In this document: positions 15,912 through 61,704 of the stretch, in pieces
How the letters are laid out: each line of letters starts with the position of its first letter
Numbering within the stretch: position 1 is the stretch's first letter
IMG/VR virus record: IMGVR_UViG_3300029305_003918
Reading direction: 5' to 3' (one strand)
DNA: 64,000 bases
Source: a virus
Position numbers and translations under genes: made by a program
Notes under the pieces: generated by a model
Told to the model about the DNA's origin: nothing
Seen by the model: the letters and a program-made list of their open reading frames with translations, nothing else
Databases searched by the model: none

Positions 15912-17321
15912 ATGCATATTAGTGTTCCAGTTGAAGCTACTGTTGAATTGCTTAACTTCACTCCTGTTAACCCTTTAATCTCTAAGTGTCAGATTAAAGT
16001 GTGTTATGTGGGAGAAGATCCCAATAGAAACCACAGTGTAATTACCAAGGCTGTTGCCACTGATATGGCGAAGTCATTGCCAGGTTGCCCTATTGTTGGT
16101 TTTTTTAATGAGGCTACTGGTGATTTTGAAGAGCATAATCGTATGATTGATGTTTCAAATGGTAAGTTTGATATTATTGATACCACTCGACCATATGGTT
16201 TCGTTGATTTGGGAGCAAAAGTCTGGTTCCAGAAATTCTTAGATGATGGTGTTGAGCATGAGTACCTTATGACTGAAGGTTATATTTGGGATGATGTGTA
16301 CCCAGAGGCTAAGCGTATCATTGAGAAGGGGAATAATCAGTCCATGGAACTTCATAATAAACTTACAAAAGGGAAGTGGACAACAGACGATAATGGAATG
16401 CCTAAGTTTTTCATTATCAATGAAGCAATTATCCAAAAATTGTGTATTCTTGGAGAGAACGTCGAACCTTGCTTTGAGGGAGCGGGTATCGCTTCGCAGT
16501 TCTCTATTGATGGAGAGTTCAAGGAACAATTGTTCTCCATGATTAAAGAATTACAAACAGCTTTACAAGAAGGAGGAAAAACTCAAATGAATGAGGATAT
16601 TAAGACCCCTATGACTGAGGAGGAGCAGAATATCGAGAATTCAGCCGAAGAGACTGAGTTCAAGAAGAAGCCCGACGAGGAAGAGGAAAAGAAAGAAGAG
16701 AAAAAGCCTCCATTCCCTCCAAAGAAGGACGAAGATGATTCAGAGGATAAGAAGGAATCTGAAGAGTCTGAGGAGGATGAAGACGAAGACGAGGACAAGA
16801 AGAAGAAGGGTAAGAAGAAGTTCGCCAAGTCCGATGATGAAGAAGAGGACGAGGATGACAAGAAGTGCCCGAAGTGCGGAAAACCTGCGTCTGAATGCTC
16901 TTGCAATAAAGAAAAGAAGTATAATCTTGAAGAGATTCCAGAATATGTTGAGCTCGCCAAGAATTATGCTGCTCTCGAAGTAAAGTGTGCTTCTCTTGAG
17001 AAGGAAATCGCTCCACTTCGTGAGTTTAAGGCCACTGCTGATCGTAAGGAAAAGCAGGCTATGATTGATGGCTTCTATATGTTGACTGAAACTGACAAGG
17101 CTGATGTTGTTGCTAATATTGACAACTATTCCTTGGATGATATTGAAGCCAAGCTTTCTATTATTTGTGTTCGTAACAAGGTTAATTTCAGCCTTGATAA
17201 CGATAAACAAGAACCCGAAAAACAGGATCCAATGGTTTATTCCCTTGGTGACAACGACGATGGCAATGACAATGCACCAGCCTGGATTAAGGCCGTGCGT
17301 GAGACTGCCAAAACTATGTAA
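15912..17321 (+). CDS. Head protein (469 aa) with an N-terminal globular domain, a long acidic/lysine low-complexity linker and a coiled-coil C-terminus; a possible prohead protease or scaffold fusion
   Basis: Intact ORF with no TAG. The linker reads EEEKKEEKKPPFPP...EDEDEDEDKKKKGKKK and is followed by a coiled coil. Confidence 0.3.
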   Translation: MHISVPVEATVELLNFTPVNPLISKCQIKVCYVGEDPNRNHSVITKAVATDMAKSLPGCPIVGFFNEATGDFEEHNRMIDVSNGKFDIIDTTRPYGFVDLGAKVWFQKFLDDGVEHEYLMTEGYIWDDVYPEAKRIIEKGNNQSMELHNKLTKGKWTTDDNGMPKFFIINEAIIQKLCILGENVEPCFEGAGIASQFSIDGEFKEQLFSMIKELQTALQEGGKTQMNEDIKTPMTEEEQNIENSAEETEFKKKPDEEEEKKEEKKPPFPPKKDEDDSEDKKESEESEEDEDEDEDKKKKGKKKFAKSDDEEEDEDDKKCPKCGKPASECSCNKEKKYNLEEIPEYVELAKNYAALEVKCASLEKEIAPLREFKATADRKEKQAMIDGFYMLTETDKADVVANIDNYSLDDIEAKLSIICVRNKVNFSLDNDKQEPEKQDPMVYSLGDNDDGNDNAPAWIKAVRETAKTM

Positions 17322-17347
17322 TTAGATATCAAAGGAGGAGCTAAAAA

Positions 17348-18052
17348 ATGGCTTTTAAAAGATTATCTCCTGAAGCTAAGTATGTAACTTATGGCTTCGG
17401 TCAGGTTGAGCCTAACCATCTCTCCGCACAGCGCACTGGTGAAATTTATGCTCAGTTGCCTGCTCATAAGGATATCAAGATCCTAGAGAATGGTCAGTTT
17501 GCTAAGTACAACTATGTAAATGGTACTGTTGATTTTGAAGGTAAGGGCGAATGGATGCTTATCTTCAATGAAGTTAAGGTCTATGCTCCATGGGAGACCG
17601 ACCAGGACTTCGCTATGATCGCTCGTGACTACAATGGTTATGTTTATAGCCCAGTTGGCGCTAAGGGCGATGTTGACAACCAGATGAAGACTATCGGTGC
17701 TGAGACCGATGTTTATGCTGCTGGTTATACTGATGAGGGTGCTGCTGATGACTTTGGTCGTATGCATTTGAAGATTGGTCAGTCCTATGAGATTGAGAAT
17801 CTAAATCAGCCTCAGCTACTTTCTGATGTTCAGGGTATGATGACTCCTCGTCTATTCAAGACTCATGAGGGCGACATCTTTACTACTAACTGTGTTGCAG
17901 AGGAAACTCTTGCTCTTGGTGACATTCTTGCTCCTAATGCAAAGGGCTACTTGGCTAAGACCGAGGCTGAGTCCGGCATGTTGTGGCAGGTTGTTAAGGT
18001 ATACAATTTAGGCGATATGCAGAAGGCCGTTAAGGTCATGCGTATTCAGTAA
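17348..18052 (+). CDS. Head protein (234 aa); a scaffold or decoration candidate
   Basis: Intact ORF with no TAG. Lies between the portal or protease region and the putative capsid gene. Confidence 0.3.
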   Translation: MAFKRLSPEAKYVTYGFGQVEPNHLSAQRTGEIYAQLPAHKDIKILENGQFAKYNYVNGTVDFEGKGEWMLIFNEVKVYAPWETDQDFAMIARDYNGYVYSPVGAKGDVDNQMKTIGAETDVYAAGYTDEGAADDFGRMHLKIGQSYEIENLNQPQLLSDVQGMMTPRLFKTHEGDIFTTNCVAEETLALGDILAPNAKGYLAKTEAESGMLWQVVKVYNLGDMQKAVKVMRIQ

Positions 18053-18075
18053 TTCGGAAAGGAGAGAAACTAGCT

Positions 18076-19122
18076 ATGTTAGAAAGAAATGAACTTTTGA
18101 AGCTTATGAAGGCTACTGCTAAAGCTGATCGCTCCGCTCCGGTTGCTTACAGCTTTAACGGCGAGAATTTGACTTATGATGCTCTTAATGAGACTCTTCG
18201 CCGTGAACTCAACGAGTATGCTGGCACTTTCGCTCAGTATCGTGAGAATAAGAATTTGATTTTTGCTCTAATTGAGCAGACTATGGATGAAGTACTTCCT
18301 AAGAAGGTTATGGAAAACTATGGTCAGTTTGCTGAGATCAAGACCATTGGTCAGGGCGATAAGGCTATCTTCCATCGTCACCATGATCGTCAGCGTGCTA
18401 AGCAGTTTATTACCAAGGTCGGACTTGCAGGTATCTACGAAGTCTTTAAGCTTGGTAAGGATACTGCTATCGAAATGCAGACCAGCGCTATTGGTGGCGC
18501 AGCTCAGATCGGTCTTGAGGAGTTCCTTGATGGTCGTGCTGATTTTGCTGAAGTTACCAAGATCGTTATGGACGGCATGGACGAGCTTATTTACTGGGAG
18601 ATCGGTCAGGCTCTTAAGACTGGTTTGAATCAGCTTCCAACCATGAATAAGGTTGAGGCTTCTGCTTTCGACGAGAAGGCATTCGATCGTCTTATTTCTA
18701 TTGCTGCAGCTTATGGTACTCCTACCATCTACTGCACTGAGGAGTTTGCTAGCACCATTCGTCCTGAGAATGCTAATATGTGGTCTGACAACATGAAGGA
18801 TGTTATCTGGAATAATGGTCGCTTTGCTTCTTATAAGAATCATCCTGTTGTTATTCTTCCACAAGGTTTCACTGATGCTACTCATACCGAGAAGGTTATT
18901 GATCCTTCCCATTGCTACATCCTACCTGGTTCTGTAAAGCCAGCTAAGGTTGTTATGGAAGGTGCTACCATTGTTGACGAGTATGTTAACAAGGATCGTA
19001 GCCGTGAAATCCAGGTTTACAAGAAGGTTGGCGTTGGCGTCGTTATGACTCCTGACATTTGCGTTTATGTAAACAACTCCTTGGATACCAAGGTTTATGA
19101 TGGTGACAAGGTTTCTGGTTAA
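18076..19122 (+). CDS. Major capsid protein candidate (348 aa)
   Basis: Size and position fit. No TAG. Strong SD. Followed by a strong intrinsic terminator, as expected of a highly expressed gene. Confidence 0.45.
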   Translation: MLERNELLKLMKATAKADRSAPVAYSFNGENLTYDALNETLRRELNEYAGTFAQYRENKNLIFALIEQTMDEVLPKKVMENYGQFAEIKTIGQGDKAIFHRHHDRQRAKQFITKVGLAGIYEVFKLGKDTAIEMQTSAIGGAAQIGLEEFLDGRADFAEVTKIVMDGMDELIYWEIGQALKTGLNQLPTMNKVEASAFDEKAFDRLISIAAAYGTPTIYCTEEFASTIRPENANMWSDNMKDVIWNNGRFASYKNHPVVILPQGFTDATHTEKVIDPSHCYILPGSVKPAKVVMEGATIVDEYVNKDRSREIQVYKKVGVGVVMTPDICVYVNNSLDTKVYDGDKVSG

Positions 19123-19137
19123 TTAAATAAATATATC

Positions 19138-19166
19138 GGGGAGGGATCACTCCCTCCCCATTTTTG
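19138..19166 (+). terminator. Intrinsic terminator after the putative major capsid gene
   Basis: GGGGAGGGA-TCAC-TCCCTCCCC followed by ATTTTT. Confidence 0.6.
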
Positions 19167-19186
19167 AGTAAAAGGAGTTTTAAAAT

Positions 19187-19777
19187 ATGAGTGATAAGAA
19201 AGTTTCTGTAAAGAATAGAAGTAGTTCTATGGTTGTATACAGTGTGCCGGAAATGGGTGTTCGTCGCGAGTTTGCTCCCAACGAAGTAAAAACCATTTCT
19301 ATGGACGAACTAAATGCTCTGTCTTATTTGCCCGGCGGCATGAATCTAATTCGCAAGCATCTATTTGTTCAGGATGAGTCCGCTCTACAAGAAATGTCTG
19401 TAAAAGTTGAGCCTGAATATTATTTGGATGAAAAGGGTGTTATTGATCTACTTGAAAAAGGTTCTATTGATGCATTCTTAGATTGTTTGGATTTTGCTCC
19501 CGAAGGCGTGCTTGATTTAATTAAGAAGCACGCTGTGGCACTTCCAGTAAATGATAATCGTAAGCGTGAAGCTATCAAAGAAAAGATGGGCTTCGACGTA
19601 ACCGCAGCGATTAAGCATTTGGAAGAAGCTCGCAAGGCAGAGGAAGAAGAGTCTGGCGTGAAAGCCGAAGCAATTACTCCTGTGCGTCGTGTGAAGACTG
19701 AGGAAGCACAGCCTGCTACTGGCCGTCGTACCGCAGTCCCGCAGTATAAGGTAGTCACTCCAAAGCAGGAGGCGTAA
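19187..19777 (+). CDS. Hypothetical head-tail joining or head-completion protein (196 aa)
   Basis: Intact ORF with SD AAAAGGAG. Confidence 0.35.
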   Translation: MSDKKVSVKNRSSSMVVYSVPEMGVRREFAPNEVKTISMDELNALSYLPGGMNLIRKHLFVQDESALQEMSVKVEPEYYLDEKGVIDLLEKGSIDAFLDCLDFAPEGVLDLIKKHAVALPVNDNRKREAIKEKMGFDVTAAIKHLEEARKAEEEESGVKAEAITPVRRVKTEEAQPATGRRTAVPQYKVVTPKQEA

Positions 19778-21658: not shown

Positions 21659-22405
21659 ATGTTGCAGTTAATGGCTGGAACCGATATCCCAATTCCAGAA
21701 TTAGGTACAAGTTTACATTAGCCAACTATTAGAGAAATTTCTTTCTTAGGCGAAGAATAGTATTTTTCATCGTTACAAATACTATGCTTCAATAAATAGA
21801 TAATCATAGCTGCAAACCCATAGGGCAGTTCTGCTCTATAGGCTATGAATAATTTTTAGATATTTATGACGTTGGTAACAGACCCAGAAATGAAAAACGT
21901 AAATGAAAAACGAAATGCAATGATTTCAATGTTTGTATTACTTTTTCCTGGGTATACCGCTCAATTTCTTCCTCATAGCATCTATTTTAATAATGCTGAA
22001 ACTTAGCACCACTTTGTTTTAGATGAAAATAATTTTGATGCTTTTTAGGCTGTATTAACAAATATGGCTGGTATGAATAATACTGCGGGTGGATAGAATT
22101 CTAATTTCAACCCTGCTAATGAGCGAGCCGCTCAAATTGCGGCCAAGCTAATGAAAGGTCGTTAGAGAGCAGCCCAGCTACGAGGAGAAGGGGAAGGAAG
22201 CGTGTTAGCTCGTTATGTATCTATTCTTACTATTGGATTAAATTCAATGAGTCTAGATAAGTGTTTAGATCTAACTGTTTATTAGCTATATGATTTAATT
22301 GAACGATATGGCTTATGGATTAGTTGGGATTTAGACATACGGTCTCGCTTGGCCGGAGGTAAACCCGATGGCAAGCCCAATGATTGGATGAAAAATATCC
22401 ATTAA
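21659..22405 (+). CDS. Hypothetical protein (~248 aa) carrying about 14 in-frame TAG codons
   Basis: SD GAGGGAGGGG then ATG at 21659. A single frame runs to a TAA at 22403 with 14 TAGs and no TAA or TGA. It is invisible to the ORF track. With TAG read as Q the translation is protein-like (for example NPQGSSALQAMNNFQIF and VYQLYDLIERYGLW). Confidence 0.5.
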
Positions 22406-22430: not shown

Positions 22431-23363
22431 ATGAAATTTGGTGTACGCGAAATTTGTGACGTTGTGCTAAAGAAGAAGGCCGGCGGTTATTTCGGTAAGC
22501 TTTATTTGGATAAGAACATGCCTGTTCTTTATTTCGATACCTTGAAGACTTCCAGTCTTGAAGGTACTGCTACTACTGTTTATGCTCAGGGTGGTAAAGG
22601 TAATCCTCGCTTGGTAGCTTGGGAAGGCGACCGCGTTGTAACCTTTACTATGGAAGATGCTTTGATTTCTCCTGAGAGCTTCTCCATTCTTTCTGGTGCT
22701 GGTTTCATGGATGCTTCTGATGATGAGAAGATTTATGTTCATGCTACCGAACAGTTGGAAGTTGTTAATGATGGTGGCGCTCTAAAGGTTAAGCTTGAGA
22801 AGAAGCCTTCTAATCAGGGTGAAATGTATATCATGCTCATGACTGAGGACGGCTCTATTGATGCTTCTAAGCTACCTATGCAGATTGCTTCTACTGATAT
22901 TGGTGCAGAAATGGTTATTCAGGATGTTCTTGATAACTGGGCTACCGCTTACAATCAGGATGCTCGTCATATTGAATTGAAGCTACCCACTCAGAACGCT
23001 CCTACTGTTGCAGAAGGCGACATTCTTTATGTTGACTACTACATCGAAGCTGCTAAGGGCGTAAAGCAGATTGATATTGAAGCTGGTAAGTTCGGTGGTT
23101 CTTACTATCTTGAAGCTTCTACCTTGTTCCGTGATCAGGCAACTGGTGATGACTTCCCTGCAGAGTTCATTATTCCAAACTGCAAGGTTCAGTCTAACTT
23201 CACCTTCACCATGGCTCCTACCGGTGATCCTTCCACCTTCACCTTTACCATGGATGCTTTCCCGGATTATACCAAGTTTGACAAGACCAAGAAGGTTATT
23301 GCTGCTCTTCAGATCGTTGAAGATGCTGGTATCTTCGGTCAGTTGGATGAAGCACAAGAATAA
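22431..23363 (+). CDS. Major tail (tube) protein candidate (310 aa)
   Basis: Intact ORF with strong SD TAAGGAGG and a strong terminator downstream. Positioned upstream of the chaperone-like and tape measure genes. Confidence 0.4.
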   Translation: MKFGVREICDVVLKKKAGGYFGKLYLDKNMPVLYFDTLKTSSLEGTATTVYAQGGKGNPRLVAWEGDRVVTFTMEDALISPESFSILSGAGFMDASDDEKIYVHATEQLEVVNDGGALKVKLEKKPSNQGEMYIMLMTEDGSIDASKLPMQIASTDIGAEMVIQDVLDNWATAYNQDARHIELKLPTQNAPTVAEGDILYVDYYIEAAKGVKQIDIEAGKFGGSYYLEASTLFRDQATGDDFPAEFIIPNCKVQSNFTFTMAPTGDPSTFTFTMDAFPDYTKFDKTKKVIAALQIVEDAGIFGQLDEAQE

Positions 23364-23383
23364 TTTAATACTATGACAATATA

Positions 23384-23421
23384 GGGAGATACTAACTTCG
23401 GTTAGTATCTCCCTTTTTTTT
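23384..23421 (+). terminator. Intrinsic terminator after the putative major tail gene
   Basis: GGGAGATACTAAC-TTCG-GTTAGTATCTCCC followed by TTTTTTTT. Confidence 0.65.
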
Positions 23422-23979: not shown

Positions 23980-23992
23980 GGAGTAATTGACT

Positions 23993-43442: not shown

Positions 43443-43467
43443 TCATATATAAAGGAGAAAAAGGATT

Positions 43468-43854: not shown

Positions 43855-43856
43855 GA

Positions 43857-46800: not shown

Positions 46801-46865
46801 GTTTGAATAATTATTTACGACAAGTCCTTGAAGAGGAAGAAAAAGAAGTGGAGGTAGTTAGATAA
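43857..46865 (+). CDS. Large tail or baseplate protein (~1002 aa; about 6 TAGs)
   Basis: Track ORFs 43857-44480 and 44754-46451 are in one frame joined by TAGs. The frame ends at a TAA at 46863 that overlaps the next ATG. Confidence 0.55.
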
Positions 46866-49564: not shown

Positions 49565-49575
49565 GGAGGGATATT

Positions 49576-51273: not shown

Positions 51274-51287
51274 GGAGGAGAAAAGAA

Positions 51288-52643: not shown

Positions 52644-52662
52644 AAATAGGAGGGACTAACTT

Positions 52663-54309
52663 ATGGCGATTAATGCAACAGATAACAAACTTCGCTTTTT
52701 AAGTGGTTTATCTACTAATCTAAGTAAGGTTGACATTACTAATGGTAATGTGTATGTTACGACCGATGAGCATATTATGTATGCTGACTTGGGTGGCAAG
52801 AGACTTCGTTTAAGTGATATTGTTATGGTAAATACCACTGCGGATTTGCCTACTTATCCACCTGAGGAGCGTAAGACTGCTCTTTACTATGTCCGCAAGG
52901 ATAACATTTTGTGTTGCTATAATACAACTGAAAACAATTCTCAATGGGTACAAATTAATGCTGCTCCTGTTCTTGAGAATATTATTGCCAGCAGCGAAAC
53001 TGTATATTCAGAAGTAACTGATGGCGAGAAGGCTAAGGCTAAGCTTTCTTTGTATGACAAGAATGGCACAGATGTAACCGATGGATTTAGCTTAATTATT
53101 GCAAGTGGTAATACCGCGACTACCAATGTTAATGCTGATAGCAATGGTATTGTCATCACTTCTGCAGATACTATTACCAGCAATAGCTTGGGCGCAAGCG
53201 TTGCAAGTAATGTGGCTACTATCACCTTGGGTGAAATCAAGAGTGGTTATAATGCAGATGGTACTGCAAAAACTGCAAGCACTACCAACCATACCTTAAA
53301 GTTAAATAATGGTGGCGGTGTTGCGATTACTGCAACTGGCACAAATCAAATTAATTTGAATGTTGCCCCTCAGAGCATTACCAATGCTTTTGATAATAAT
53401 GGTGCCTTTAAGACTACTATTCAGCTTGCTGATGGTGAGGAAGTTGCTAGCACCGGTATCACTCCGATTATTAAGTATGGTTATGGCGCAGCAAAGGCGA
53501 CTGCTCAGTTTGTAAATGGTACTGCAACTCTTGCTGATCTTTACACTAAGACTGAAGTTGATGCTGCAATTACCGCACAGCTAAAGACTGCGAATGCAAT
53601 GACATTTATTGGCGCGGTTGGCGGAACTACCAATCTTCCAGTTGCTAATTCTGGTGTTGCAGTTGGTGATACTTACATTGTAAGTACCGCTGGCGATATC
53701 AAGAATACTTCTGGTGCTTTGGTACAAGCTGGCGCCAAGGTCGGTGATTTGTTCATTGCAACTGGTACTGAGACCGACGGTAAGATTACTGCTGCTCTTG
53801 AGTGGAAGTACGTACCTGCAGGCAATGATGATTTGTATCAGTATACAGCTGCTGTTTCTGATTCTGAATTCACTCTTGTTCAGAGCTTTGCAAGTGAAGA
53901 GTCTAATGTTGGTTCTATTGCAGTTGGTAGTGGCTTAACTGGCAGCGCTAGTGGTACTACTTTAACTATTGCTCACCCAACTAAGACCGTACAGGCAAAG
54001 ACCAGTACTGCAAATCTTACTACTGCTGGTACCACTCAAACCTTCGCTGCGATTAGTGGCGTAACTTATGATGAGTATGGCCATGTAACTGCTATCACCA
54101 CTGGTACTTATTCTGTAGCCAATCACACTCTTAGCAGTATTGCTTATTCTGCATCCGCTGCAAGCAATACCGCGACTGTTAAGACTGTCGTGGCTCAGCA
54201 GTCTGGTGAGGAAGTAGAAGGCTCCTTCTCCGTTAAGAGTAATAACTTAACTGTAACCGCTTCTGGTTCTGCAGTTACTATTGATCTTGTCTGGGGAGAA
54301 TTCGCCTAA
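52663..54309 (+). CDS. Tail fibre-like protein (548 aa), TAG-free
   Basis: Intact ORF. T/S/A/G/N-rich beta-type composition. A terminator follows it. Confidence 0.4.
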   Translation: MAINATDNKLRFLSGLSTNLSKVDITNGNVYVTTDEHIMYADLGGKRLRLSDIVMVNTTADLPTYPPEERKTALYYVRKDNILCCYNTTENNSQWVQINAAPVLENIIASSETVYSEVTDGEKAKAKLSLYDKNGTDVTDGFSLIIASGNTATTNVNADSNGIVITSADTITSNSLGASVASNVATITLGEIKSGYNADGTAKTASTTNHTLKLNNGGGVAITATGTNQINLNVAPQSITNAFDNNGAFKTTIQLADGEEVASTGITPIIKYGYGAAKATAQFVNGTATLADLYTKTEVDAAITAQLKTANAMTFIGAVGGTTNLPVANSGVAVGDTYIVSTAGDIKNTSGALVQAGAKVGDLFIATGTETDGKITAALEWKYVPAGNDDLYQYTAAVSDSEFTLVQSFASEESNVGSIAVGSGLTGSASGTTLTIAHPTKTVQAKTSTANLTTAGTTQTFAAISGVTYDEYGHVTAITTGTYSVANHTLSSIAYSASAASNTATVKTVVAQQSGEEVEGSFSVKSNNLTVTASGSAVTIDLVWGEFA

Positions 54310-54328
54310 TTTATAAATTTTACTACAC

Positions 54329-54372
54329 AGGGCAAAGTGACACTGCACTTTGCCCTTTTTATTTTTTGAGAG
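54329..54372 (+). terminator. Intrinsic terminator after the 52663-54309 fibre-like gene
   Basis: GGGCAAAGTG...CACTTTGCCC followed by TTTTTATTTTTT. Confidence 0.6.
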
Positions 54373-54390
54373 GAAGGAGAAAATCGTTTT

Positions 54391-57300
54391 ATGAATGTAT
54401 CTGAAAGAATCTCTACTGATGCTTTTAGTCCTTATCATGGTACAGAAGAAATGGTTAATGCCGCGATTAAAAGAAACGGCGCCGTTTATTTTGCTTATGA
54501 TAATAGAAAAATCTTCTTCGATGTAAATGGTAACCGTTATCAAATGAGCGGAAATGGTATCCTTTTCGTTTATGGTGACACTCCACCCGAAGAGCTTGTT
54601 TTAGATCCTGAAACAGCACTATATCCATTTCCTCGTGAGAATATTTTAGAAGATCACTATCTTGTTGGTAGTATTATTATTAATTCTGATAATACGTTCT
54701 ATAAGATTGTGCAGATGGATGATGTTCTTGCTTATTGCGAAAAGCTTCTCATTGCCGGTGGCGGTGGTGGTGGAATCGGCGATGGAGATGGAGATGAAAT
54801 CTTCGATTCCAGCATTTTGCTTTCTATTGATTTTCCTAAATATCATCCATATGGAACAAAGTTAATTGGTAAAGGTAAAGTTACTGATGCCCGCGGAGGT
54901 CAATCTGGTACTTTTACTTTGCAAATTTATAATAACGTTGGAGAATATAAAGAAGGTATTGCTCCTCGTTTTACAAAGAGTTTTACCGTTGATGTTGGAG
55001 ATTGGTTTGATATTGAGCTAAATGCCGATGATGTGGTTGCTGGTGATCAGAACTATTTCCTTTTCCAAGTAGAAGTAGATCTCCGCTATAGCTCTCCAGT
55101 AACTCGTCAAGTTACTTGTGTTGATGTTCACTATGAGCCAACAAATCAATGGAATCCAATTGCACTCTTAAAACCAGAAGAACAAGATGTGCAATATTAT
55201 TATAAAGTTTATGCCGGACAAGGATCTAAGCTTCCTGACGACTGGAGTATTAATGTTGTTTATACGCTCACTGATGGATTAAGCGGACTTAGCTATGAAG
55301 TAAGCGATGTTGTTACTTCTCAAAGTGGCGCCTTTAAATTAAATGATTTATTGTCTAACGTAGATCAAGGTGGTCATACATTAGATGTTCACGCGACAAT
55401 GATGATCGGCACGAGTGAAGTTGTTGTTGGTGATTATCATTACGGTATTGGTGTATTTAGAAATATCACTTCTGGTGAAAAAGCTGTACCAATTATTTGG
55501 TCTCCATATAATAAGACAGAAGAGGAAAATTATACAATTATTAAGATTCCTTATAATGTATATGATCCAACTCGTAATGATGGTAAAGCGTATGTTGAAT
55601 ATTACATCAATGGTGAAGAACAAATTGGTGTTACTGTAACTTATTCTGAAACCGAATGGCAACCATGGACTATCGCTACTTATAATGTAAATGAAATGAA
55701 CTCTTTCATTTTACAGTGCGGTTTAACTTATAAAGAATTCCAAGTGTTCATTGTTCCAAATTATAAGATGGACCTTGACGCTACAAAAGGTGCAGTTTTA
55801 TATTTGAATGCTCTTGGACGTTCTAATCTAGAAACCCCAAATAAACGTCAACAATGGCCAAACAAAGCAGAAACTCAAGATGATACTATTGGTCTTGGAG
55901 AAATTAAATTTAATAATTTTAACTGGGCTAATAATGGTTGGATTGAGGATGAATCTGAAGGTACTTGTTTAAGAGTTAGCAATGGTGCTTCTGTTGAAAT
56001 TCCTTTAGCAGCGATGTCTACTGTCAAAGCGGCTTCTCGTACTTATGAATTTGATTTTAAAGTTCGTAATGCTGTTGATTACTCTCGCTTAATTATTGAA
56101 AAAGCAGTACAAAAGATTGATGCTAATGGCAACCCAATGTTCGACGAAGATGGAACTCCAGAAACTGAACAGGTAAAAACTGTATCTAGTGGCGAAGGAG
56201 CATTTTTAACATATTTTAATCCTAGCAACTATCGTGGTTTTATGCTTGGTACTCAAGAGGCTTTCTTCAGTCTTTCTAAAACTAAAGTTGTTAATGCTCG
56301 TTATACCGATGATGAAAGAGTAAAAATTTCTATCGTAGTAGATGCAGCTGGTAAATTTACTCAGATTTATAATACAGAAACTGGTGCTCCAACTTCAAAT
56401 ACTATTCCATTAATTTATTTATATGTTAATGGTGTTTTGACCAATATTATGAAATTTACTTCTAATGATGACTTTAGCGCTTCCGTTGATAAGATTGTTA
56501 TTAACTCTGATTATTGTGATGTTGATATTTTTAATATTCGTGTTTACACAAATGCATTAAATTATTCTGCGATTACTCAAAACTGGATTGGTGATGCTCC
56601 AACTCTTGATGAGAGACATAATCGTTATAATCGCAATGGTTCTATTGTTGAAAGTAATAAAATTGATTATGCTAAAGTGCGTCAAGCAGATATTATCCCA
56701 ACAATGGTTATTACAACTTATAAAAATTCTGATGTAGGTGCTACGGCTGACAATAAACTTCCTTACGCAAAAGGAAACAAGAAAGCTGTTGGTATTCGTT
56801 TCTGGAATCCAGCTAAACCAAGTCAAGGCTTCCATTGTCAGAATGTTGAATTGGACGTGCAAGGAACTTCTTCTCAGGGTTATCCACGTCGTAATTATAA
56901 GTTAAAGACCCAAGAAAAAGTTTCTGGTATTACAAGTTGGGACAAACCTTTCCGCTTTGAAACTTGGGATGGCGACGAAAACAAGAAAGATTACTGGTAT
57001 CAAGATCATAATGACGAAAGTAAAATGATTTCTAAAATTGATATTGGTAATGGTATCGCCGCGAAGACTTTCTGTTTAAAAGCTGACTATATGGAAAGTT
57101 CAAGTACACATAATACGCAATTTGCCAATTTGATCCAGACTATTGCAAATCAAACTGGCAGTGACAAGAGTGCAGACTTGAGACATCCATTAAAGAAATA
57201 TTTTGGTCAAACCAAAGATTATAGAACCACTGTTTTCGGATTCCCAATTTTGGTATTCTGGGAAGACATTGATGGTAATATTGAGTATGTTGGTAAGTAC

Positions 57301-60300
57301 AATTTTAATCTTGATAAGGGTGCTACCAATACATTTGGCTTTGACTTTGGATGGGATTTAGACCCAACAAAACGTGTATATAATCCATATTCCGTAGAAA
57401 AGATTCATACCTCTTGGCAGAAGGTCGATGAATTAAGCGATGATGAAGAGCTAAGAGAAGAAACTACGCCTCGTAAGAGTACTTTTGGCGAGTTAGCCGA
57501 ATGTTGGGAATTCTGCCAGAACCAGTCTGGTCTTGGTAAATTCCAAAGCGATGATGTGAATGGTTTCTACGAATTAATTCCTAACACTGAAGAAAATGCT
57601 GGTCGTCTACAAATTTATAATCATTTCGAGCCTCGTTATACTTATGAAGACTGGGATATCGGAGATGTTTATAAAGATAATGAGATTGGTGTAGCAAATC
57701 AGTATATTAAAGATCATACCAAGAATTTTAAGGTAATGTGGGATTGGGTACATAGCACAGATACCACAAAGTTCACTGGTAGTGCATTAGATGCGACCAA
57801 ATATTATTTAACCTTATCTTCTCAATATGAGCATGGTGTTACTTATTATACTCTTGGCGCAGATCAGACTTATACAAAAGCAAATATTACTCCTACCATT
57901 CAAGCTGCTTATCAGACTTTGAATGAAACAGATAATGCAAATAGCGTAATTGTTAATAATCTTAAGACATTTACTGATTTCTTAGTAGCTGTAAATGGCA
58001 CTCTGACTGAAGAAGATAAAGCTAATGGTATGACTCATGATTATGAGAAATACGTTGGACCTTATACTTTTGTAAAACATGAAGATGGATTATTCTATTA
58101 CGAAATGCCTGAAGGTAGTGACCAAGAGGCAGTTGCAAATTGTGGATTAGAGATTAGTGAAAACTATGCTCGTGATGAATTTACTATTGAAGTAAATTTG
58201 GTCTGGGAAGGTTTTAGCGCAGATCTTTATGAGAAATTTGATACTGACTCTATCCGCTATAGAAAAGCTAAGTTCAGAAATGAATTTACTGAGCACTTTG
58301 ATCTTGATTATTGTGCAATCTATTTCATTATGACTGAATTGCTTTTGTGCTATGACTCTCGTCAAAAGAATATGATGATTGCAACATGGGGTCCAACTGC
58401 TAAGTCTAATGCTAACGGTGATTTTATTTGGTTCCCAATTTTCTACGATATTGATACTCAGTTAGGTGTAAACAATTCCGGACATGTTTCTTGGGACTAC
58501 AACACTGATGCAACATTAGTATCTGAAGATCCTGATATTTATGACGACACAGGTCATGCATTTAAAGATGCTTCCATCTTCTCTGGTGCTGGTTCAGTTT
58601 TATGGATCAACTTCGCTGGATTAATGATGGACAAAATTTTAGCAATTTATCGCGGCTTACGCAATGAAGGTGCGATTGAACTCGATACACTTAATGAACA
58701 TTATAATACCAATGGTTCTGACAAGTGGAGCGAAATTATGAAGAACATTGACGCTGATTATAAATATATCTCTCCTGCAACTACAGGATATACCGATCAA
58801 GAAGGAACTATTTCTCAAACTGAAGGTTATTTCTACTGCTTGCAAGGTGATAGAACTTTAAATCGTCAAGCATTCTTCCGCAATCGTTTGAATTATCTTG
58901 ACTCTCAGTGGTTAGGTGGTTCTTATAATCCTGAATTTATTAAGAAGCAAATTAAATTGCGTTATAATGCAAACGACCTTGCTCGTACTTCTGATGATAC
59001 TAAAGATGAAGAAGGTAACTTAGTAGAAGGTTTGCAGGCAAGTGCATCATTCAATCTACATGGATACTTATCTCAGTATCTATCTGTAGTATATGATGAA
59101 ACTGCTACCACGCCTAAGCCTTATGTTGCCGGTCAAGACGATCCTGTTCTTATTGACCCACCATCTTCTATTAAAAACCGCTTAGACGATGGCGTTCCAT
59201 TGTCTCAACAGTTGGCTTATATTCGCGGTCCAGAATATATCGCGGATCTTGGCAACTTAAGTGACAAGTACCTTAATGAAATTGACTATTCTCAAGCAAT
59301 TCGTTTGCGTACTTTCACACTTGGTTCTTTGATAGATGGCTATCGCAATGATGGTATCACAGATAAATTTATTGATGCTTTGGCTATCACTGCTACAAGT
59401 CCAAAAGGACTTTTGACATATATGGACCTATCTAATTTAACTAAGTTGGCTGGTTCTCTTCAATTAACTGGTGCTGAAAAAATTAATACTTTTATGGCAA
59501 CAGGTACACAATTAAGTTCTGTCGAGTTTACTGAAGGTAACTTGTTAAAGACCTTGTACTTGCCAGAAACAATTACCTCCTTTGTTTTGAAACAACCTCT
59601 TGAATTAAGGGGTATTGTAGAAACAGCTCCAACCATTGATAATACTCCAACTGGTTTATATATTAAGAATTTAACAGATAAATATACCACTACTCCTAAT
59701 GCTAATACAACTTGTAATATTGAGACATTTGTATTAGACAGAAGTAAAATGGGTATTGATTCTTATCGTTTGTTAGATTACTTATATAAAGTAAAAGAAG
59801 CTAAACACAATGGCATTATTACTGATGGAAATACCACACCTATTTTAAAGTGTGACTTTACCGATGTGGAATGGTCTCCATATAAATTAGTTGAAATTGG
59901 TACATCTTTCGATCGTGCAACAAAGTATTATGAATTAAAAAATCAAACCACTTACGAAGTATACCATGATCCTAACGGAGCTACTGGTTATTATGAGGAA
60001 GGCTGGATCAATAAACTTAATGATGGTGTAATTTATACTTTTGATGATGCTTTTGATACAAACGTCATTAAAAATCTTGATATTGTAACAGCTTTCTTAG
60101 ATATGTATGAGGATAAAACCGCAACTGTGGAAACTGATACTTATCGTTACCGCTCTTTCTTAACTTATAATGAACTTTTACCAAATACTAAAATTCTTCC
60201 AGGCTTAACTGGTCGTATGCACGTGAACAATCAGGAAGAGGGAGATGCATTAGACGAATATACTTTGTGGAAACGTTATAATGCACTTTATCCAGATCTT

Positions 60301-61704
60301 GAAATTACTGGTGACAAAGTAAATCCTGCTTATTCTGTTCATTTTGTTGAATATAATGCAGAAGGTGTTCAAAAGACACTTGGATGGTTAAAGTATCCTT
60401 ATGGATATGCTGAGTCCCCAGTAGTTTACGAAGGAGAAGAACCTTCTAGATTGCATTATGACTTTGTTGGTTGGGCAATTGAAGATGGCACATTTGATTT
60501 TAGAGCGGCACATTCCGTAATTACCGATAATGATAAAGTTACACTTTATGCAACTAATGAATTAAATACTCACGTCTTATCTGCTATTGATGGTGGACGC
60601 GTAACTGTTGTTGCAGTATATAAAGTGCATGGTTATACTATGAGCTTTTATAATTATGATGGCTCTTTGTTTGAAGAAATTGAAACTCCTGCTGGTAAGC
60701 CAATTATTACTCCTACTAGAATTCCTCAAAGAGATAGCACCTCTTTGGCTTTGACTTCTTGTTATAAATTTATTGGTTGGCATACTTCTCTTACTTCTTC
60801 TACTGACACCACCGATTTAAATCGTATTTTAGCAGGTAGCGACATGAACTTCTATGCGGTTTACATGGAAAGTAGTGTTTATGACAATATAATTGATCAG
60901 CAGTATTTAAATATTACTTATAAAACAGACGCCGTTCTTGGCAATTATGCTATTGTTGGTCTTGATCCTACTTATGGCATTGGTGGAAAAGTTTGTTTCC
61001 CAATTACCGTATTTGATGAACAAGGTGTCGAATGGCCGATCTTAGAAATTGCTGCAGGTACTTCTGCAACAGGCTCTGTATCTAATGGTATGTGTCAAAA
61101 TACTGATCTGTACGCTGTGTTCTTCTTAGGTTGTCAAGAAAATGCAGAGAATTTAAGTAAGATTTATAAATTTAATGATTTTGCATTTGATAAAGCAACC
61201 AGCTTAGTTCATGTTGATTTCCCTGACTCACTAACTACTATTGGAACTTTCTGCTTCAGAAATTGTACTAATTTAGTGGTTGACAATACTAACAATGTTA
61301 GCTATTTTGGCAATAGTGCATTTGCAAATGCATGCCGAAATAAGGATTGTGTTGTTCTTACTGTTCCTTATAATGAGTACAGTCTTGGAGACACTAACAA
61401 TGATGGTATTGAAGATTTTGGTGCTGCTTATGGTAATAAGACATTCCAAAACTGTGGTTGGTCTATTATTAATTTTGGCACCGCTCAAAGACCAATTAAT
61501 GCAAACGCTTTAACTTGGTTGTCAACAAATGCCATGTTTGGTGCAAGCTCTCAAGAATATTTATCTTTAAGTAGTTTTGTTGTTACTTACGATAATAACA
61601 GTACTTCATATGATGAAATTCTTTCCTATGTAGATGATTGGATTACTAACTATGATCTTCATATTACAGCTAATCCAAATCTTGTCCAAATTATGCAAGC
61701 TTAA
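54391..61704 (+). CDS. Giant tail fibre or host-recognition protein (2437 aa) with BspA-type leucine-rich repeats at its C-terminus, TAG-free
   Basis: A single intact 7.3-kb ORF with SD GAGGAAGGAG. The C-terminal ~250 aa show BspA-like LRR (LRR_5) periodicity (...TSLVHVDFPDSLTTIGTFCFRNCTNLVV...VSYFGNSAFANAC...). Confidence 0.5.
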   Translation: MNVSERISTDAFSPYHGTEEMVNAAIKRNGAVYFAYDNRKIFFDVNGNRYQMSGNGILFVYGDTPPEELVLDPETALYPFPRENILEDHYLVGSIIINSDNTFYKIVQMDDVLAYCEKLLIAGGGGGGIGDGDGDEIFDSSILLSIDFPKYHPYGTKLIGKGKVTDARGGQSGTFTLQIYNNVGEYKEGIAPRFTKSFTVDVGDWFDIELNADDVVAGDQNYFLFQVEVDLRYSSPVTRQVTCVDVHYEPTNQWNPIALLKPEEQDVQYYYKVYAGQGSKLPDDWSINVVYTLTDGLSGLSYEVSDVVTSQSGAFKLNDLLSNVDQGGHTLDVHATMMIGTSEVVVGDYHYGIGVFRNITSGEKAVPIIWSPYNKTEEENYTIIKIPYNVYDPTRNDGKAYVEYYINGEEQIGVTVTYSETEWQPWTIATYNVNEMNSFILQCGLTYKEFQVFIVPNYKMDLDATKGAVLYLNALGRSNLETPNKRQQWPNKAETQDDTIGLGEIKFNNFNWANNGWIEDESEGTCLRVSNGASVEIPLAAMSTVKAASRTYEFDFKVRNAVDYSRLIIEKAVQKIDANGNPMFDEDGTPETEQVKTVSSGEGAFLTYFNPSNYRGFMLGTQEAFFSLSKTKVVNARYTDDERVKISIVVDAAGKFTQIYNTETGAPTSNTIPLIYLYVNGVLTNIMKFTSNDDFSASVDKIVINSDYCDVDIFNIRVYTNALNYSAITQNWIGDAPTLDERHNRYNRNGSIVESNKIDYAKVRQADIIPTMVITTYKNSDVGATADNKLPYAKGNKKAVGIRFWNPAKPSQGFHCQNVELDVQGTSSQGYPRRNYKLKTQEKVSGITSWDKPFRFETWDGDENKKDYWYQDHNDESKMISKIDIGNGIAAKTFCLKADYMESSSTHNTQFANLIQTIANQTGSDKSADLRHPLKKYFGQTKDYRTTVFGFPILVFWEDIDGNIEYVGKYNFNLDKGATNTFGFDFGWDLDPTKRVYNPYSVEKIHTSWQKVDELSDDEELREETTPRKSTFGELAECWEFCQNQSGLGKFQSDDVNGFYELIPNTEENAGRLQIYNHFEPRYTYEDWDIGDVYKDNEIGVANQYIKDHTKNFKVMWDWVHSTDTTKFTGSALDATKYYLTLSSQYEHGVTYYTLGADQTYTKANITPTIQAAYQTLNETDNANSVIVNNLKTFTDFLVAVNGTLTEEDKANGMTHDYEKYVGPYTFVKHEDGLFYYEMPEGSDQEAVANCGLEISENYARDEFTIEVNLVWEGFSADLYEKFDTDSIRYRKAKFRNEFTEHFDLDYCAIYFIMTELLLCYDSRQKNMMIATWGPTAKSNANGDFIWFPIFYDIDTQLGVNNSGHVSWDYNTDATLVSEDPDIYDDTGHAFKDASIFSGAGSVLWINFAGLMMDKILAIYRGLRNEGAIELDTLNEHYNTNGSDKWSEIMKNIDADYKYISPATTGYTDQEGTISQTEGYFYCLQGDRTLNRQAFFRNRLNYLDSQWLGGSYNPEFIKKQIKLRYNANDLARTSDDTKDEEGNLVEGLQASASFNLHGYLSQYLSVVYDETATTPKPYVAGQDDPVLIDPPSSIKNRLDDGVPLSQQLAYIRGPEYIADLGNLSDKYLNEIDYSQAIRLRTFTLGSLIDGYRNDGITDKFIDALAITATSPKGLLTYMDLSNLTKLAGSLQLTGAEKINTFMATGTQLSSVEFTEGNLLKTLYLPETITSFVLKQPLELRGIVETAPTIDNTPTGLYIKNLTDKYTTTPNANTTCNIETFVLDRSKMGIDSYRLLDYLYKVKEAKHNGIITDGNTTPILKCDFTDVEWSPYKLVEIGTSFDRATKYYELKNQTTYEVYHDPNGATGYYEEGWINKLNDGVIYTFDDAFDTNVIKNLDIVTAFLDMYEDKTATVETDTYRYRSFLTYNELLPNTKILPGLTGRMHVNNQEEGDALDEYTLWKRYNALYPDLEITGDKVNPAYSVHFVEYNAEGVQKTLGWLKYPYGYAESPVVYEGEEPSRLHYDFVGWAIEDGTFDFRAAHSVITDNDKVTLYATNELNTHVLSAIDGGRVTVVAVYKVHGYTMSFYNYDGSLFEEIETPAGKPIITPTRIPQRDSTSLALTSCYKFIGWHTSLTSSTDTTDLNRILAGSDMNFYAVYMESSVYDNIIDQQYLNITYKTDAVLGNYAIVGLDPTYGIGGKVCFPITVFDEQGVEWPILEIAAGTSATGSVSNGMCQNTDLYAVFFLGCQENAENLSKIYKFNDFAFDKATSLVHVDFPDSLTTIGTFCFRNCTNLVVDNTNNVSYFGNSAFANACRNKDCVVLTVPYNEYSLGDTNNDGIEDFGAAYGNKTFQNCGWSIINFGTAQRPINANALTWLSTNAMFGASSQEYLSLSSFVVTYDNNSTSYDEILSYVDDWITNYDLHITANPNLVQIMQA

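What the first reader, a model, noticed from the sequence alone, without database searches (positions are those of the whole stretch)
15912..61704. Very uneven TAG density among late genes: a 14-TAG, 249-codon gene next to TAG-free capsid and fibre genes
The gene at 21659-22405 has about 14 TAGs in about 249 codons (~5.6%). The tape measure gene has roughly 1 per 90 codons. In contrast the head genes (15912-19777), the major tail gene (22431-23363), and the whole fibre block 50056-61704 (3843 codons, including a single 2437-aa ORF) have zero TAGs.

If TAG use were purely mutational drift the density should track AT content. Instead it looks gene-specific. This could reflect differential dependence on a suppressor (translational gating of particular late proteins) or recent horizontal acquisition of the TAG-free genes from standard-code phages.
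Basis: seen in the sequence. Interest (0 to 1): 0.7.

Follow-up and report, generated by a model that had tools for sequence, protein, structure and literature searches.

The report
Amber codons avoided in abundant virion genes
This phage reads the stop codon TAG as glutamine, keeps it out of its most heavily made virion genes (capsid, tail tube, fibres) and lets it pile up in weakly codon-optimised low-copy genes, which is ordinary codon-usage selection acting on a reassigned stop codon rather than imported genes or a bespoke switch.

Summary
With TAG read as sense, the 28 late genes carry 105 in-frame TAGs among 704 Gln-type codons, very unevenly (chi2 99.6, 27 df, p=3e-10). Gene 21659-22405 has 11 TAGs in 248 codons, not 14. 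Head genes, tail tube and the fibre block 50056-61704 have none (0/123 Gln codons in the fibres, P=2e-11). The other 18 genes are homogeneous (p=0.17).

TAG encodes Gln. It aligns with Q 7.6-fold over background and sits at invariant Q sites.

The pattern is inherited. In about 20 recoded relatives and in published phage Phass-1, the same families are TAG-free (YonB capsid, YomU tube, g17348, g19187). The 21659 family (YomV-like) is always the richest. Syntenic relatives keep fibre genes TAG-poor (5-8% against 21-33% upstream).

A codon-bias score that excludes Gln codons predicts TAG use (rho -0.68; GLM p=5e-15). The strongest terminator hairpins follow the capsid, tube and fibre genes.

Best reading: TAG is a costly Gln codon, removed where translational selection is strong. 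Recent import from standard-code phages is not supported. Deliberate gating is at most secondary. No suppressor tRNA was found in the window. This is a new member of a known kind, of moderate interest.

The parts
9914..15896 (+). Packaging and portal genes with ordinary TAG use: 9914-10984 (2 TAG), 10990-12162 (0), large terminase 12164-13906 (2), 13919-14275 (1), portal 14289-15896 (7 TAG in 23 Gln codons).
   Evidence: PHROG hits: portal phrog_2739 at 1e-79 and a terminase large-subunit hit. Counts. The portal family is TAG-enriched beyond its codon-bias expectation in relatives (z=4.1).
15912..19777 (+). TAG-free head genes: YonD_N-like acidic protein 15912-17321, 17348-18052, major capsid protein (YonB family) 18076-19122, and 19187-19777. 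Together 0 TAG in 43 Gln codons, with CAG far more common than CAA.
   Evidence: Counts. Pfam names. The Phass-1 orthologue is annotated as major capsid protein. In relatives TAG/Gln is 0.004 to 0.10.
19138..19159 (+). Strong terminator-like hairpin (9 pairs, 7 G-C, followed by a T run) 16 nt after the capsid gene stop.
21659..22405 (+). The TAG-richest gene: 248 codons, 11 in-frame TAG among 16 Gln codons. It belongs to the YomV_2nd family (PF27211, phrog_4051). Its Phass-1 orthologue is annotated 'tail-to-head joining protein'.
   Evidence: Full-length PHROG match across all the TAGs. 2922 homologues. TAG occupies invariant Gln sites. TAG/Gln is 0.475 across 16 recoded loci including the window and 6/13 in Phass-1. 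Its codon-bias score is second lowest in the window. The fold has no PDB match.
22431..23363 (+). TAG-free tail tube (major tail) gene of the YomU_Tube family: 0 TAG, 12 CAG, 1 CAA.
   Evidence: Precomputed Pfam PF27173 YomU_Tube; phrog_2729 virion structural protein. In relatives 2 TAG in 151 Gln codons.
23383..23414 (+). Strong terminator-like hairpin (14 pairs, followed by T8) 20 nt after the tube gene stop.
23987..25270 (+). TAG-rich gene of 427 codons (8 TAG in 21 Gln codons) with the lowest codon-bias score. It has an orthologue in only 1 of 40 related loci.
25953..37328 (+). Tape measure gene: 3791 codons, 42 TAG (1 per 90 codons; 19% of Gln codons).
   Evidence: Tape-measure PHROGs at 6e-46; counts.
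37449..49965 (+). Distal-tail and baseplate genes with ordinary TAG use: 37449-43442 (18), 43857-46865 (4), 46865-49564 (6), 49576-49965 (1). Gene 43468-43854 has 0.
   Evidence: Codon usage is indistinguishable from the tape measure gene (p=0.27).
50056..54309 (+). Three TAG-free fibre-like genes (405, 451 and 548 aa): 0 TAG in 45 Gln codons. This is a conserved gene set found in many phage lineages.
   Evidence: In 18 recoded loci, 50056-like genes have TAG/Gln 0.078 and the next gene 0.084, against 0.277 for the rest of the locus (Wilcoxon 1.5e-5 and 3e-5). Weak Pfam hit to a phage tail tip domain.
54329..54356 (+). Strong terminator-like hairpin (11 pairs, followed by a T run) 20 nt after the 52663-54309 stop and ahead of the giant gene.
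54391..61704 (+). Giant TAG-free gene: 2437 aa, with BspA-type leucine-rich repeats (LRR_5), 0 TAG in 78 Gln codons.
   Evidence: Orthologues in syntenic relatives have 4/72, 7/87 and 7/87 TAG per Gln codons. More distant ones have 5.7-41%. No tandem repeats.
62493..64000 (+). A further TAG-free late gene, partial in the window (589 aa in the full genome): 0 TAG in 12 Gln codons in the window part, AAG fraction 0.74.
9868..9896 (+). Near-consensus extended -10 sigma-70-type promoter at the head of the late gene block. A second, perfect one lies at 25277-25305 ahead of 25339 and the tape measure gene. Both positions are conserved in relatives.

Best explanation
The window holds the late (virion) gene block of a phage of about 168 kb related to SPbeta and Phass-1. 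In this phage TAG has been reassigned from stop to glutamine (genetic code 15).

TAG then behaves as the least favoured of three synonymous Gln codons. It must be read by a suppressor tRNA in competition with release factor 1. Every TAG therefore costs some yield and produces truncated protein, and the cost scales with how much of the protein is made.

AT-biased mutation turns CAG into TAG or CAA in weakly selected genes. Purifying selection removes TAG from genes under strong translational selection: the capsid, its partner head proteins, the tail tube, and to a lesser degree the fibre block. Low-copy genes with weak codon optimisation (tape measure, baseplate, and above all the YomV-like gene 21659-22405 and gene 23987-25270) drift to high TAG use.

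Shown here: the reassignment to Gln, the statistical unevenness, its conservation across relatives, and its correlation with codon bias at other amino acids.

Inferred: that codon bias stands for expression level, that suppression is incomplete, and that a phage tRNA(CUA) does the decoding. No such tRNA lies in the window.
For: - TAG means Gln. Residues opposite TAG in orthologue alignments are 25% Q against a 3.3% background. Invariant Q sites (HQP, VYQLYD) are written as TAG.
- TAG is never used as a stop. The 28 late genes end in TAA (26) or TGA (2), and the early ORFs also end in TGA or TAA.
- The unevenness is real and frame-specific.
- It is conserved by gene family in 14-20 recoded loci including the window. 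TAG/Gln is 0.004 (g17348), 0.013 (tube), 0.022 (capsid) and 0.054 (g19187), against 0.22-0.37 for most others and 0.475 for the 21659 family. The same holds in Phass-1, at 52% capsid identity.
- The fibre block stays TAG-poor in syntenic relatives: 5.6-8% for the giant gene against 21-33% in the adjacent baseplate genes, at 65/48/37% identity. The same is seen across 18 recoded loci.
- A codon-bias score trained on relatives, with Gln codons excluded, predicts TAG/Gln in the window. Spearman is -0.68 (p=6e-4), or -0.60 without the training families. The GLM likelihood-ratio chi2 is 61 (p=5e-15). The reverse test, with weights from the window applied to relatives, gives rho -0.72 (p=0.0015).
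- Fibre-block synonymous usage differs from the tape-measure and baseplate genes (chi2 324, 41 df, p=1e-45; internal control p=0.27). It shifts toward head-gene preferences at nearly every amino acid.
- TAG-free genes use CAG, the one-step mutational precursor of TAG, most heavily (capsid 11 CAG to 1 CAA). Opportunity is therefore highest exactly where TAG is absent.
- The three strongest terminator hairpins in the late block directly follow the capsid, tube and 52663 fibre genes.
- Sense TAGs prefer A at the next base and, in the window, avoid T. True stops are followed by T in 18 of 28 cases (p=0.0013). This fits competition with termination.
Against: - There is no expression or proteome data. 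Codon bias, terminator placement and virion copy number are proxies.
- Codon bias does not explain everything. Residual chi2 is 55 on 26 df (p=7e-4). The portal has 7 TAGs against 1.3 expected. The fibre block has 0 against 5.9 expected (Poisson about 0.003).
- In relatives the YomO-like family is TAG-poor despite weak bias (z=-6), and the portal and 19781 families are TAG-rich despite moderate bias.
- Fibres are not obviously high-copy proteins, and the giant gene lies downstream of a terminator.
- Shine-Dalgarno strength does not track TAG use.
- The suppressor tRNA was not found in the window or within 10 kb of either end of the same genome.
Confidence: 0.62

Rival explanations
1. Designed translational gating. 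TAG is concentrated by positive selection in particular low-copy proteins that start or join assemblies (portal, tape measure, YomV-like joining protein). Virion assembly then cannot begin until the suppressor is active, while bulk subunits are left suppressor-independent.
For: - The 21659 family has the highest TAG use in every recoded genome examined, including Phass-1. Its first TAG is at codon 21, so no useful product is made without suppression.
- The portal and 19781 families exceed their codon-bias expectation in relatives (z=4.1 and 3.4).
- TAGs lie slightly toward the 5' end of genes in relatives (mean 0.456 against 0.512, p=1.4e-5).
- The late block is preceded by near-consensus sigma-70-type promoters like those of the early genes, so control after transcription would be useful.
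- Borges et al. proposed this kind of regulation and found a tail tube family preferentially recoded in crAss-like phages.
Against: - After controlling for codon bias, the 21659 gene is only about 2 SD above expectation.
- The other TAG-rich gene (23987-25270) is a poorly conserved ORF, not a nucleator.
- The same promoters occur in standard-code relatives, so they are not tied to recoding.
- Lysis genes, the main targets in the published model, are not in the window.
- The 5' bias is not significant in the window itself (p=0.51).
Confidence: 0.22
2. Horizontal origin. The TAG-free genes, especially the fibre block, came recently from standard-code phages, or are kept TAG-poor by continual recombination with them, and have not had time to accumulate TAG.
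For: - Fibre genes diverge much faster than head genes. The giant gene is 31% identical in a relative whose capsid is 79% identical.
- The 50056-like family occurs in both standard-code and recoded phages. In other clades, cross-code pairs reach 75-81% identity.
- Fibre-block codon usage differs from its neighbours.
- The identical giant gene sits next to different downstream genes on another contig.
- The window's 0/123 is lower than the 5-8% seen in its relatives.
Against: - The block is syntenic and TAG-poor in relatives at 65%, 48% and 37% identity. At that divergence synonymous sites should be saturated and TAG use at equilibrium.
- The best standard-code match to the window's 50056 gene is only 43% identical. 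No close standard-code homologue of the giant gene turned up among 5.8 billion proteins. The three closest relatives checked (65%, 48%, 37%) lie in recoded genomes.
- The capsid and tube genes are core, vertically inherited genes, yet are the most TAG-free.
- The codon-usage shift is toward this phage's own head genes.
Confidence: 0.1
3. No biology. Per-gene TAG counts reflect only base composition, glutamine content and sampling noise.
For: - Several small TAG-free genes (20699, 23446, 25339, 43468, and the tube gene on its own) are individually compatible with chance.
- The orthologues of 20699 and 23446 do carry TAGs in relatives.
Against: - Global heterogeneity is p=3e-10. Monte Carlo gives P<1e-5 under both the Gln-normalised and the positional-composition models.
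- Off-frame TAGs are plentiful where in-frame ones are absent.
- The pattern repeats by gene family in independent genomes.
Confidence: 0.02

Closest known systems
Stop-codon-recoded (code 15, TAG to Gln) gut phages, as surveyed by Borges et al. (bioRxiv 10.1101/2021.08.26.457843) and Yutin et al. (PMC7886860)
   Same: - In-frame TAG is read as Gln in late structural genes, while the early genes are compatible with the standard code.
- The recoded genes have low GC.
- Standard-code and recoded members sit side by side in one family.
- Recoded-codon use is biased by gene family. [quoted passage not shown]
   Different: - Those papers stress enrichment (lysis genes, a tail tube family) and describe structural genes as recoded in general.
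- Here the clearest signal is depletion. The most abundant virion proteins, including the tail tube, are essentially TAG-free across the family.
- TAG use here tracks codon bias at other amino acids.
- Lysis genes and suppressor tRNAs lie outside this window.
Phage Phass-1 (OQ749652) and the proposed Phassvirus group (Babkin et al., PMC10607447); more distantly the Enterococcus EF1 group and SPbeta-like phages
   Same: - The capsid is 52% identical to that of Phass-1.
- The head-to-tube gene order matches in orthologous genes.
- There is a very long tape measure (3149 aa in Phass-1, 3791 aa here).
- TAG is read as Gln, and the likely host is in the Clostridia or Bacillota.
- The Phass-1 supplementary table marks the capsid gene, its neighbours and two tail fibre genes as lacking TAG, and the YomV-like 'tail-to-head joining protein' as carrying it.
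   Different: - This genome is larger (about 168 kb against 136 kb), and the tail module is placed differently relative to the packaging module.
- The Phass-1 paper lists which ORFs carry TAG. I found no analysis of the uneven density in the passages I read.
- Phass-1 carries two tRNA-Sup-CTA genes. None could be reached for this genome.
Classical translational-selection codon bias (mutation-selection-drift), with the strongest bias in phage capsid and other high-copy virion genes
   Same: A single axis of synonymous preference separates capsid and tube genes from tape-measure and baseplate genes at almost every amino acid. TAG falls at the disfavoured end of that axis.
   Different: The disfavoured codon is a reassigned stop. 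Its cost probably includes premature termination by release factor 1 as well as slow decoding. That link is inferred from the next-base context bias and is not measured.

Membership tests
Code 15 (TAG to Gln) recoded phage | Conserved genes are interrupted by in-frame TAG, and homology continues across the TAGs | tested here: met
   Portal, terminase, tape measure and the YomV-like gene match their families end to end only when TAG is read through. ORF content on the + strand rises from 15,446 to 21,950 aa.
Code 15 (TAG to Gln) recoded phage | TAG positions correspond to glutamine in homologues | tested here: met
   25% Q opposite TAG against a 3.3% background, a 7.6-fold enrichment, followed by K and E. 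Invariant Q sites are encoded by TAG.
Code 15 (TAG to Gln) recoded phage | TAG is not used to terminate genes | tested here: met
   The 28 late genes stop with TAA (26) or TGA (2). The roughly 25 early ORFs stop with TGA or TAA.
Code 15 (TAG to Gln) recoded phage | Phage-encoded amber suppressor tRNA (anticodon CUA) | tested here: inconclusive
It is present in relative Phass-1 in two copies and in other recoded lineages L051 and L055.
Code 15 (TAG to Gln) recoded phage | Early genes are readable in the standard code | tested here: met
   Positions 1-9822 hold small standard-code ORFs on the minus strand, each with a ribosome-binding site and its own promoter.
Phass-1-like / SPbeta-like siphophages | Homologous virion module (YonD, YonB capsid, YomV, YomU tube, YomW, YomO, very long tape measure) | tested here: met
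   Precomputed Pfam names on the identical genome. tblastn to Phass-1 at 52%, the EF1 group at 36% and SPbeta-like phages at 26-28%. Collinear orthologues in Phass-1. Tape-measure PHROGs.
Preferentially recoded late genes used as a lysis-timing gate (Borges et al. model) | Lysis genes are the families most biased toward the recoded codon | not tested
   No lysis genes were identified in the window. An endolysin-like gene lies downstream in a relative (L084) but was not analysed as a family.
Preferentially recoded late genes used as a lysis-timing gate (Borges et al. model) | Specific gene families use the recoded codon significantly more than the genome average | tested here: met
   The YomV-like family has TAG/Gln 0.475, a median 0.28 above the locus mean (Wilcoxon 3e-5). 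The portal family is 0.09 above (9.5e-5). After controlling for codon bias the excess is z=2.0 and z=4.1.
Translational-selection codon bias | Concordant synonymous preferences across amino acids separate presumed high-expression from low-expression genes | tested here: met
   Head and tube, fibre, and tape-measure blocks form an ordered series at F, K, E, Q, L, S, T, R, I and G codons. The score predicts TAG use.
Translational-selection codon bias | Bias correlates with measured expression or protein abundance | not testable with these tools
   No transcriptome or proteome is available for this uncultured phage. Only proxies exist: inferred virion role and terminator placement.

The most novel reading that the evidence does not exclude
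The split is functional, not just economical. Every bulk building block (scaffold-like protein, capsid, tube, fibres) can be translated in the host's standard code. Each assembly pathway has a low-copy initiator or joining part that cannot (portal for heads, tape measure for tails, the YomV-like head-tail joining protein with 11 TAGs). The code switch would then act as an assembly checkpoint: subunits accumulate from consensus host-type promoters, but no particle can nucleate or be joined until the suppressor tRNA is active.
Probability: 0.2. Interest if true: 0.7.

Novelty: new member of a known kind. Interest (0 to 1): 0.4.

Why it matters
The usual statement is that recoded phages write their late structural genes in the alternative code so that those genes cannot be expressed early. 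In this family, the proteins made in the largest amounts (capsid, tail tube, fibres) carry essentially no TAG. Any translational block can therefore act only through low-copy parts.

The link with codon bias suggests that reading TAG as Gln carries a measurable cost. That bears on how efficient natural amber suppression is during infection and on how a stop-codon reassignment spreads through a genome after it arises.

There is also a practical point. Gene callers and code-detection tools that rely on the capsid gene, or on a few hallmark genes, can misjudge the code of such phages, because those genes look the same under the standard code.

Tried and rejected
- Megablast of 24 kb against GenBank phages found nothing. 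A protein search was needed to reach Phass-1.
- GC3 alone is a poor predictor of TAG use (rho -0.32, p=0.11), and so is the CAG fraction (p=0.30). A multi-amino-acid bias score worked.
- Shine-Dalgarno strength as an independent expression proxy showed no relation (rho -0.19, p=0.39). Nearly all late genes have strong sites.
- Tandem repeats do not explain the TAG-free giant gene. None were found.
- The tube model was too poor (pLDDT 60) for a fold search. PDB sequence searches with the capsid, tube and g17348 proteins found nothing.
- The search for the suppressor tRNA, by walking 10 kb beyond each end of the window on the same or near-identical contigs, found none.
- A literature search for prior reports of recoded-codon depletion in capsid or highly expressed phage genes found none in the held library. 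This is not proof of absence.

Full report
**What the window is**

Positions 1-9822 have 49% GC and hold small standard-code genes on the minus strand. Nearly every one has its own near-consensus extended -10 sigma-70-type promoter. The pattern TTGACA-N17-TATAAT with at most one mismatch occurs 25 times in the window against 1.1 expected, and 19 of these lie in the first 8 kb.

From 9.9 kb to the end, a single + strand block at about 35% GC encodes virion proteins. This block makes sense only if TAG is read as a sense codon. With TAA and TGA as the only stops, the fragments fuse into a 3791-aa tape measure gene, a 1997-aa gene and others. The fused products match phage families end to end: portal at 1e-79, tape measure at 6e-46, phrog_4051 for the 248-aa gene.

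The phage is uncultured:
- Megablast finds nothing in GenBank phages.
- The capsid protein is 52% identical to that of the published code-15 phage Phass-1, 36% to the Enterococcus EF1 group and 26-28% to SPbeta-like phages.
- The same genome exists as a 167,964-bp ENA contig, with 2 mismatches in 19.6 kb.
- Precomputed Pfam labels on that contig name the genes after SPbeta virion proteins: YonD_N, YonB, YomV_2nd, YomU_Tube, YomW, YomO.

**TAG means glutamine**

I aligned the window's proteins with orthologues from 40 related loci. Residues opposite TAG codons are Q in 25% of cases, against a background of 3.3%. K and E come next.

In the 248-aa gene, Q positions conserved across the orthologue alignment (HQP, NFQIFM, VYQLYD), two of them invariant, are written as TAG in the window and in about half of the recoded relatives. 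Standard-code relatives write them as CAA or CAG.

No late or early gene ends in TAG.

**The observation**

Gene 21659-22405 has 11 in-frame TAGs in 248 codons, not about 14.

| Gene or block | Coordinates | In-frame TAG / Gln codons | Exact P |
|---|---|---|---|
| YomV-like gene | 21659-22405 | 11/16 | 6.9e-7 (excess) |
| Tape measure | 25953-37328 | 42/220 (1 per 90 codons) | 6.9e-3 (excess) |
| Four head genes | 15912-19777 | 0/43 | 5.9e-4 |
| Head genes plus tube | adds 22431-23363 | 0/56 | 5e-5 |
| Four fibre genes (3841 codons) | 50056-61704 | 0/123 | 2.3e-11 |
| Giant fibre gene alone | 54391-61704 | 0/78 | 6e-7 |

Across the 28 late genes there are 105 TAGs among 704 Gln-type codons. 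Homogeneity is rejected (chi2 99.6, 27 df, p=3e-10). Monte Carlo gives P<1e-5 both when normalised to Gln codons and under a model using each gene's own position-specific base composition.

Once these classes are set aside, the remaining 18 genes are homogeneous (p=0.17).

The absence is specific to the reading frame. The fibre block contains 107 off-frame TAG trinucleotides.

**The pattern is inherited, not accidental**

In 14-20 recoded loci including the window, TAG as a fraction of Gln codons depends on the gene family:

| Family | TAG/Gln |
|---|---|
| g17348 | 0.004 |
| Tube (YomU) | 0.013 |
| Capsid (YonB) | 0.022 |
| g19187 | 0.054 |
| YonD-like | 0.10 |
| Terminase, portal, connector genes | 0.22-0.37 |
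| YomV-like (the 21659 family) | 0.475 |

Genes that are TAG-free only in the window (20699, 23446) do carry TAGs in relatives. Those zeros are therefore chance.

Phass-1 gives an independent published check. Its authors' table marks the capsid gene, its three neighbours and two tail fibre genes as lacking TAG. My own counts give 0 TAG in the orthologues of YonD, g17348, capsid, g19187 and tube, and 6 of 13 Gln codons as TAG in the YomV orthologue.

For the fibre block:
- The conserved 50056-like gene and its downstream partner are about 3.5-fold depleted in 18 recoded loci from several lineages (0.078 and 0.084 against 0.277).
- Three syntenic relatives, whose giant gene is 65%, 48% and 37% identical to the window's, show 5.6-8% TAG in that gene against 21-33% in the adjacent baseplate genes.
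- More distant orthologues range up to 41%.
- The window's complete absence is therefore the extreme of a lineage-wide depletion.

**What predicts TAG use**

Synonymous codon usage in the fibre block differs strongly from the tape-measure and baseplate genes (chi2 324, 41 df, p=1e-45). Those genes do not differ among themselves (p=0.27).

The fibre block is shifted toward the head and tube genes at almost every amino acid. Values below are fibre block / tape-measure block / head genes:
- Lys AAG: 0.43 / 0.17 / 0.82
- Phe TTC: 0.41 / 0.14 / 0.58
- Leu TTA: 0.41 / 0.61 / 0.09

A bias score built from relatives (capsid, g17348 and tube against the rest, Gln codons excluded) predicts TAG/Gln in the window:
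- Spearman -0.68 (p=6e-4), or -0.60 when the training families are removed.
- Binomial GLM likelihood-ratio chi2 61 (p=5e-15).
- The model expects 7.1 TAGs in the YomV-like gene (11 observed) and 10.4 in gene 23987-25270 (8 observed). Both have the lowest bias scores.

The reverse design, with weights from the window applied to relatives, gives rho -0.72 (p=0.0015).

Other observations fit the same picture:
- The three strongest terminator-like hairpins in the late block sit directly after the capsid, tube and 52663 fibre genes. This placement is the one usually seen after heavily expressed structural genes (general knowledge; not tested here).
- TAG-free genes are the ones richest in CAG, the single-step precursor of TAG. 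TAG is thus absent where mutational opportunity is greatest.

**Mechanism proposed**

TAG is a third Gln codon, and the least favoured. Its decoding depends on a suppressor tRNA competing with release factor 1, so each TAG lowers yield and produces truncated chains. Selection removes it in proportion to how much protein is made. AT-biased mutation lets it accumulate elsewhere.

A small context signal supports the idea of competition with termination. The base after a sense TAG is A in 45% of window cases, against 30% after CAA or CAG. T is avoided there in the window. True stops are followed by T in 18 of 28 genes (pooled p=0.0013).

The suppressor itself was not seen. There is no tRNA in the window or within 10 kb beyond either end. 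Phass-1 carries two tRNA-Sup-CTA genes.

**Rivals**

Recent import of TAG-free genes from standard-code phages is disfavoured:
- The pattern is conserved in syntenic, strongly diverged relatives.
- The window's fibre genes have no close standard-code homologue. The best cross-code identity is 43%, and the three closest homologues of the giant gene whose contigs were checked (65%, 48% and 37% identity) lie in recoded genomes.
- The codon shift is in the direction of the phage's own head genes.

Some gene flow remains possible. In other clades 50056-like genes reach 81% identity across the code boundary, and the identical giant gene has different downstream neighbours on another contig.

Deliberate gating cannot be excluded as a secondary layer:
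- The portal and 19781 families carry more TAG than their bias predicts (z=4.1 and 3.4).
- The YomO-like family carries less (z=-6).
- The window's fibre block has fewer than predicted (0 against 5.9).
- TAGs lie slightly toward the 5' ends of genes in relatives.
- The near-consensus host-type promoters ahead of the late genes are conserved in standard-code relatives too, so they do not argue for gating specifically.

**Comparison with the literature**

Borges et al. already compared TAG with CAA/CAG per gene family in crAss-like phages. [quoted passage not shown]

The present case belongs to that kind. What it adds is the depletion side, the opposite behaviour of the tail tube, and the quantitative link with general codon bias. 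I found no paper in the held library that reports this.

**Verdict**

Its cause is most likely ordinary translational selection acting on a reassigned stop codon. Interest is moderate.

Noticed in passing
window 1-9900: The early region has 49% GC against about 35% for the late block. It holds about 20 small standard-code genes, almost each preceded by its own near-consensus extended -10 sigma-70-type promoter (TTGACAAAC...TGnTATAAT). The pattern has 25 matches in the window against 1.1 expected by chance, 19 of them in the first 8 kb.
   Followed up: partly
window 9868-9896 and 25277-25305 (also 41118-41146): The late block carries the same kind of consensus promoter at its start and, as a perfect 12/12 match with TG, just before the YomO-like gene and tape measure. 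Both positions are conserved in relatives, including standard-code ones.
   Followed up: partly
window 25953-37328: The tape measure protein is 3791 aa. At the usual 0.15 nm per residue (general knowledge, not tested) that implies a tail of roughly 570 nm, which is exceptionally long. Phass-1 has 3149 aa.
   Followed up: no
window 23987-25270: A 427-aa gene lies between the YomW-like and YomO-like genes. It has an orthologue in only 1 of 40 related loci, no PHROG match, 8 TAGs and the weakest codon bias in the block. It may be a lineage-specific insertion.
   Followed up: no
window 54391-61704; proteins P0015-P0021: The 2437-aa protein carries BspA-type leucine-rich repeats (Pfam LRR_5). Its more distant homologues of similar size carry CotH kinase-like and laminin-G-like domains instead, which suggests domain swapping in a giant host-interaction protein.
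   Followed up: no
late genes of the window and loci L001-L040: Sense TAG codons favour A at the following base and, in the window, avoid T. Genuine stop codons are followed by T in 18 of 28 genes. TAG positions are shifted toward the 5' part of genes in relatives (mean 0.456 against 0.512, p=1.4e-5) but not significantly in the window.
   Followed up: partly
L024-L027, L029-L032, L034-L037, L018, L021-L022: Within one capsid family (54-66% identity to the window) some genomes use the standard code, or show very few in-frame TAGs, while others are fully recoded. The code has therefore changed inside this family. Several of the standard-code ones are extremely CAA-biased (for example 83 CAA to 5 CAG).
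   Followed up: partly
L090 (JGI 3300018878, 46.5-kb contig) versus L089: A giant fibre gene identical to the window's is followed after about 3 kb by different genes on another contig, all TAG-free. This points to recent module exchange downstream of the fibre block.
   Followed up: no
orthologues of window 25339-25863 and 14289-15896 in L001-L040: Two families depart from the codon-bias rule in opposite directions. The YomO-like family is TAG-poor despite weak bias (13 observed, 42 expected). The portal family is TAG-rich despite moderate bias (132 observed, 97 expected).
   Followed up: partly
L051 7074-7148 and L055 4907-4979: Other recoded phage lineages that share the 50056-like fibre gene carry a tRNA with anticodon CUA inside large tRNA arrays just upstream of their fibre genes. 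In L051 it lies near tRNA-Gln(UUG).
   Followed up: no
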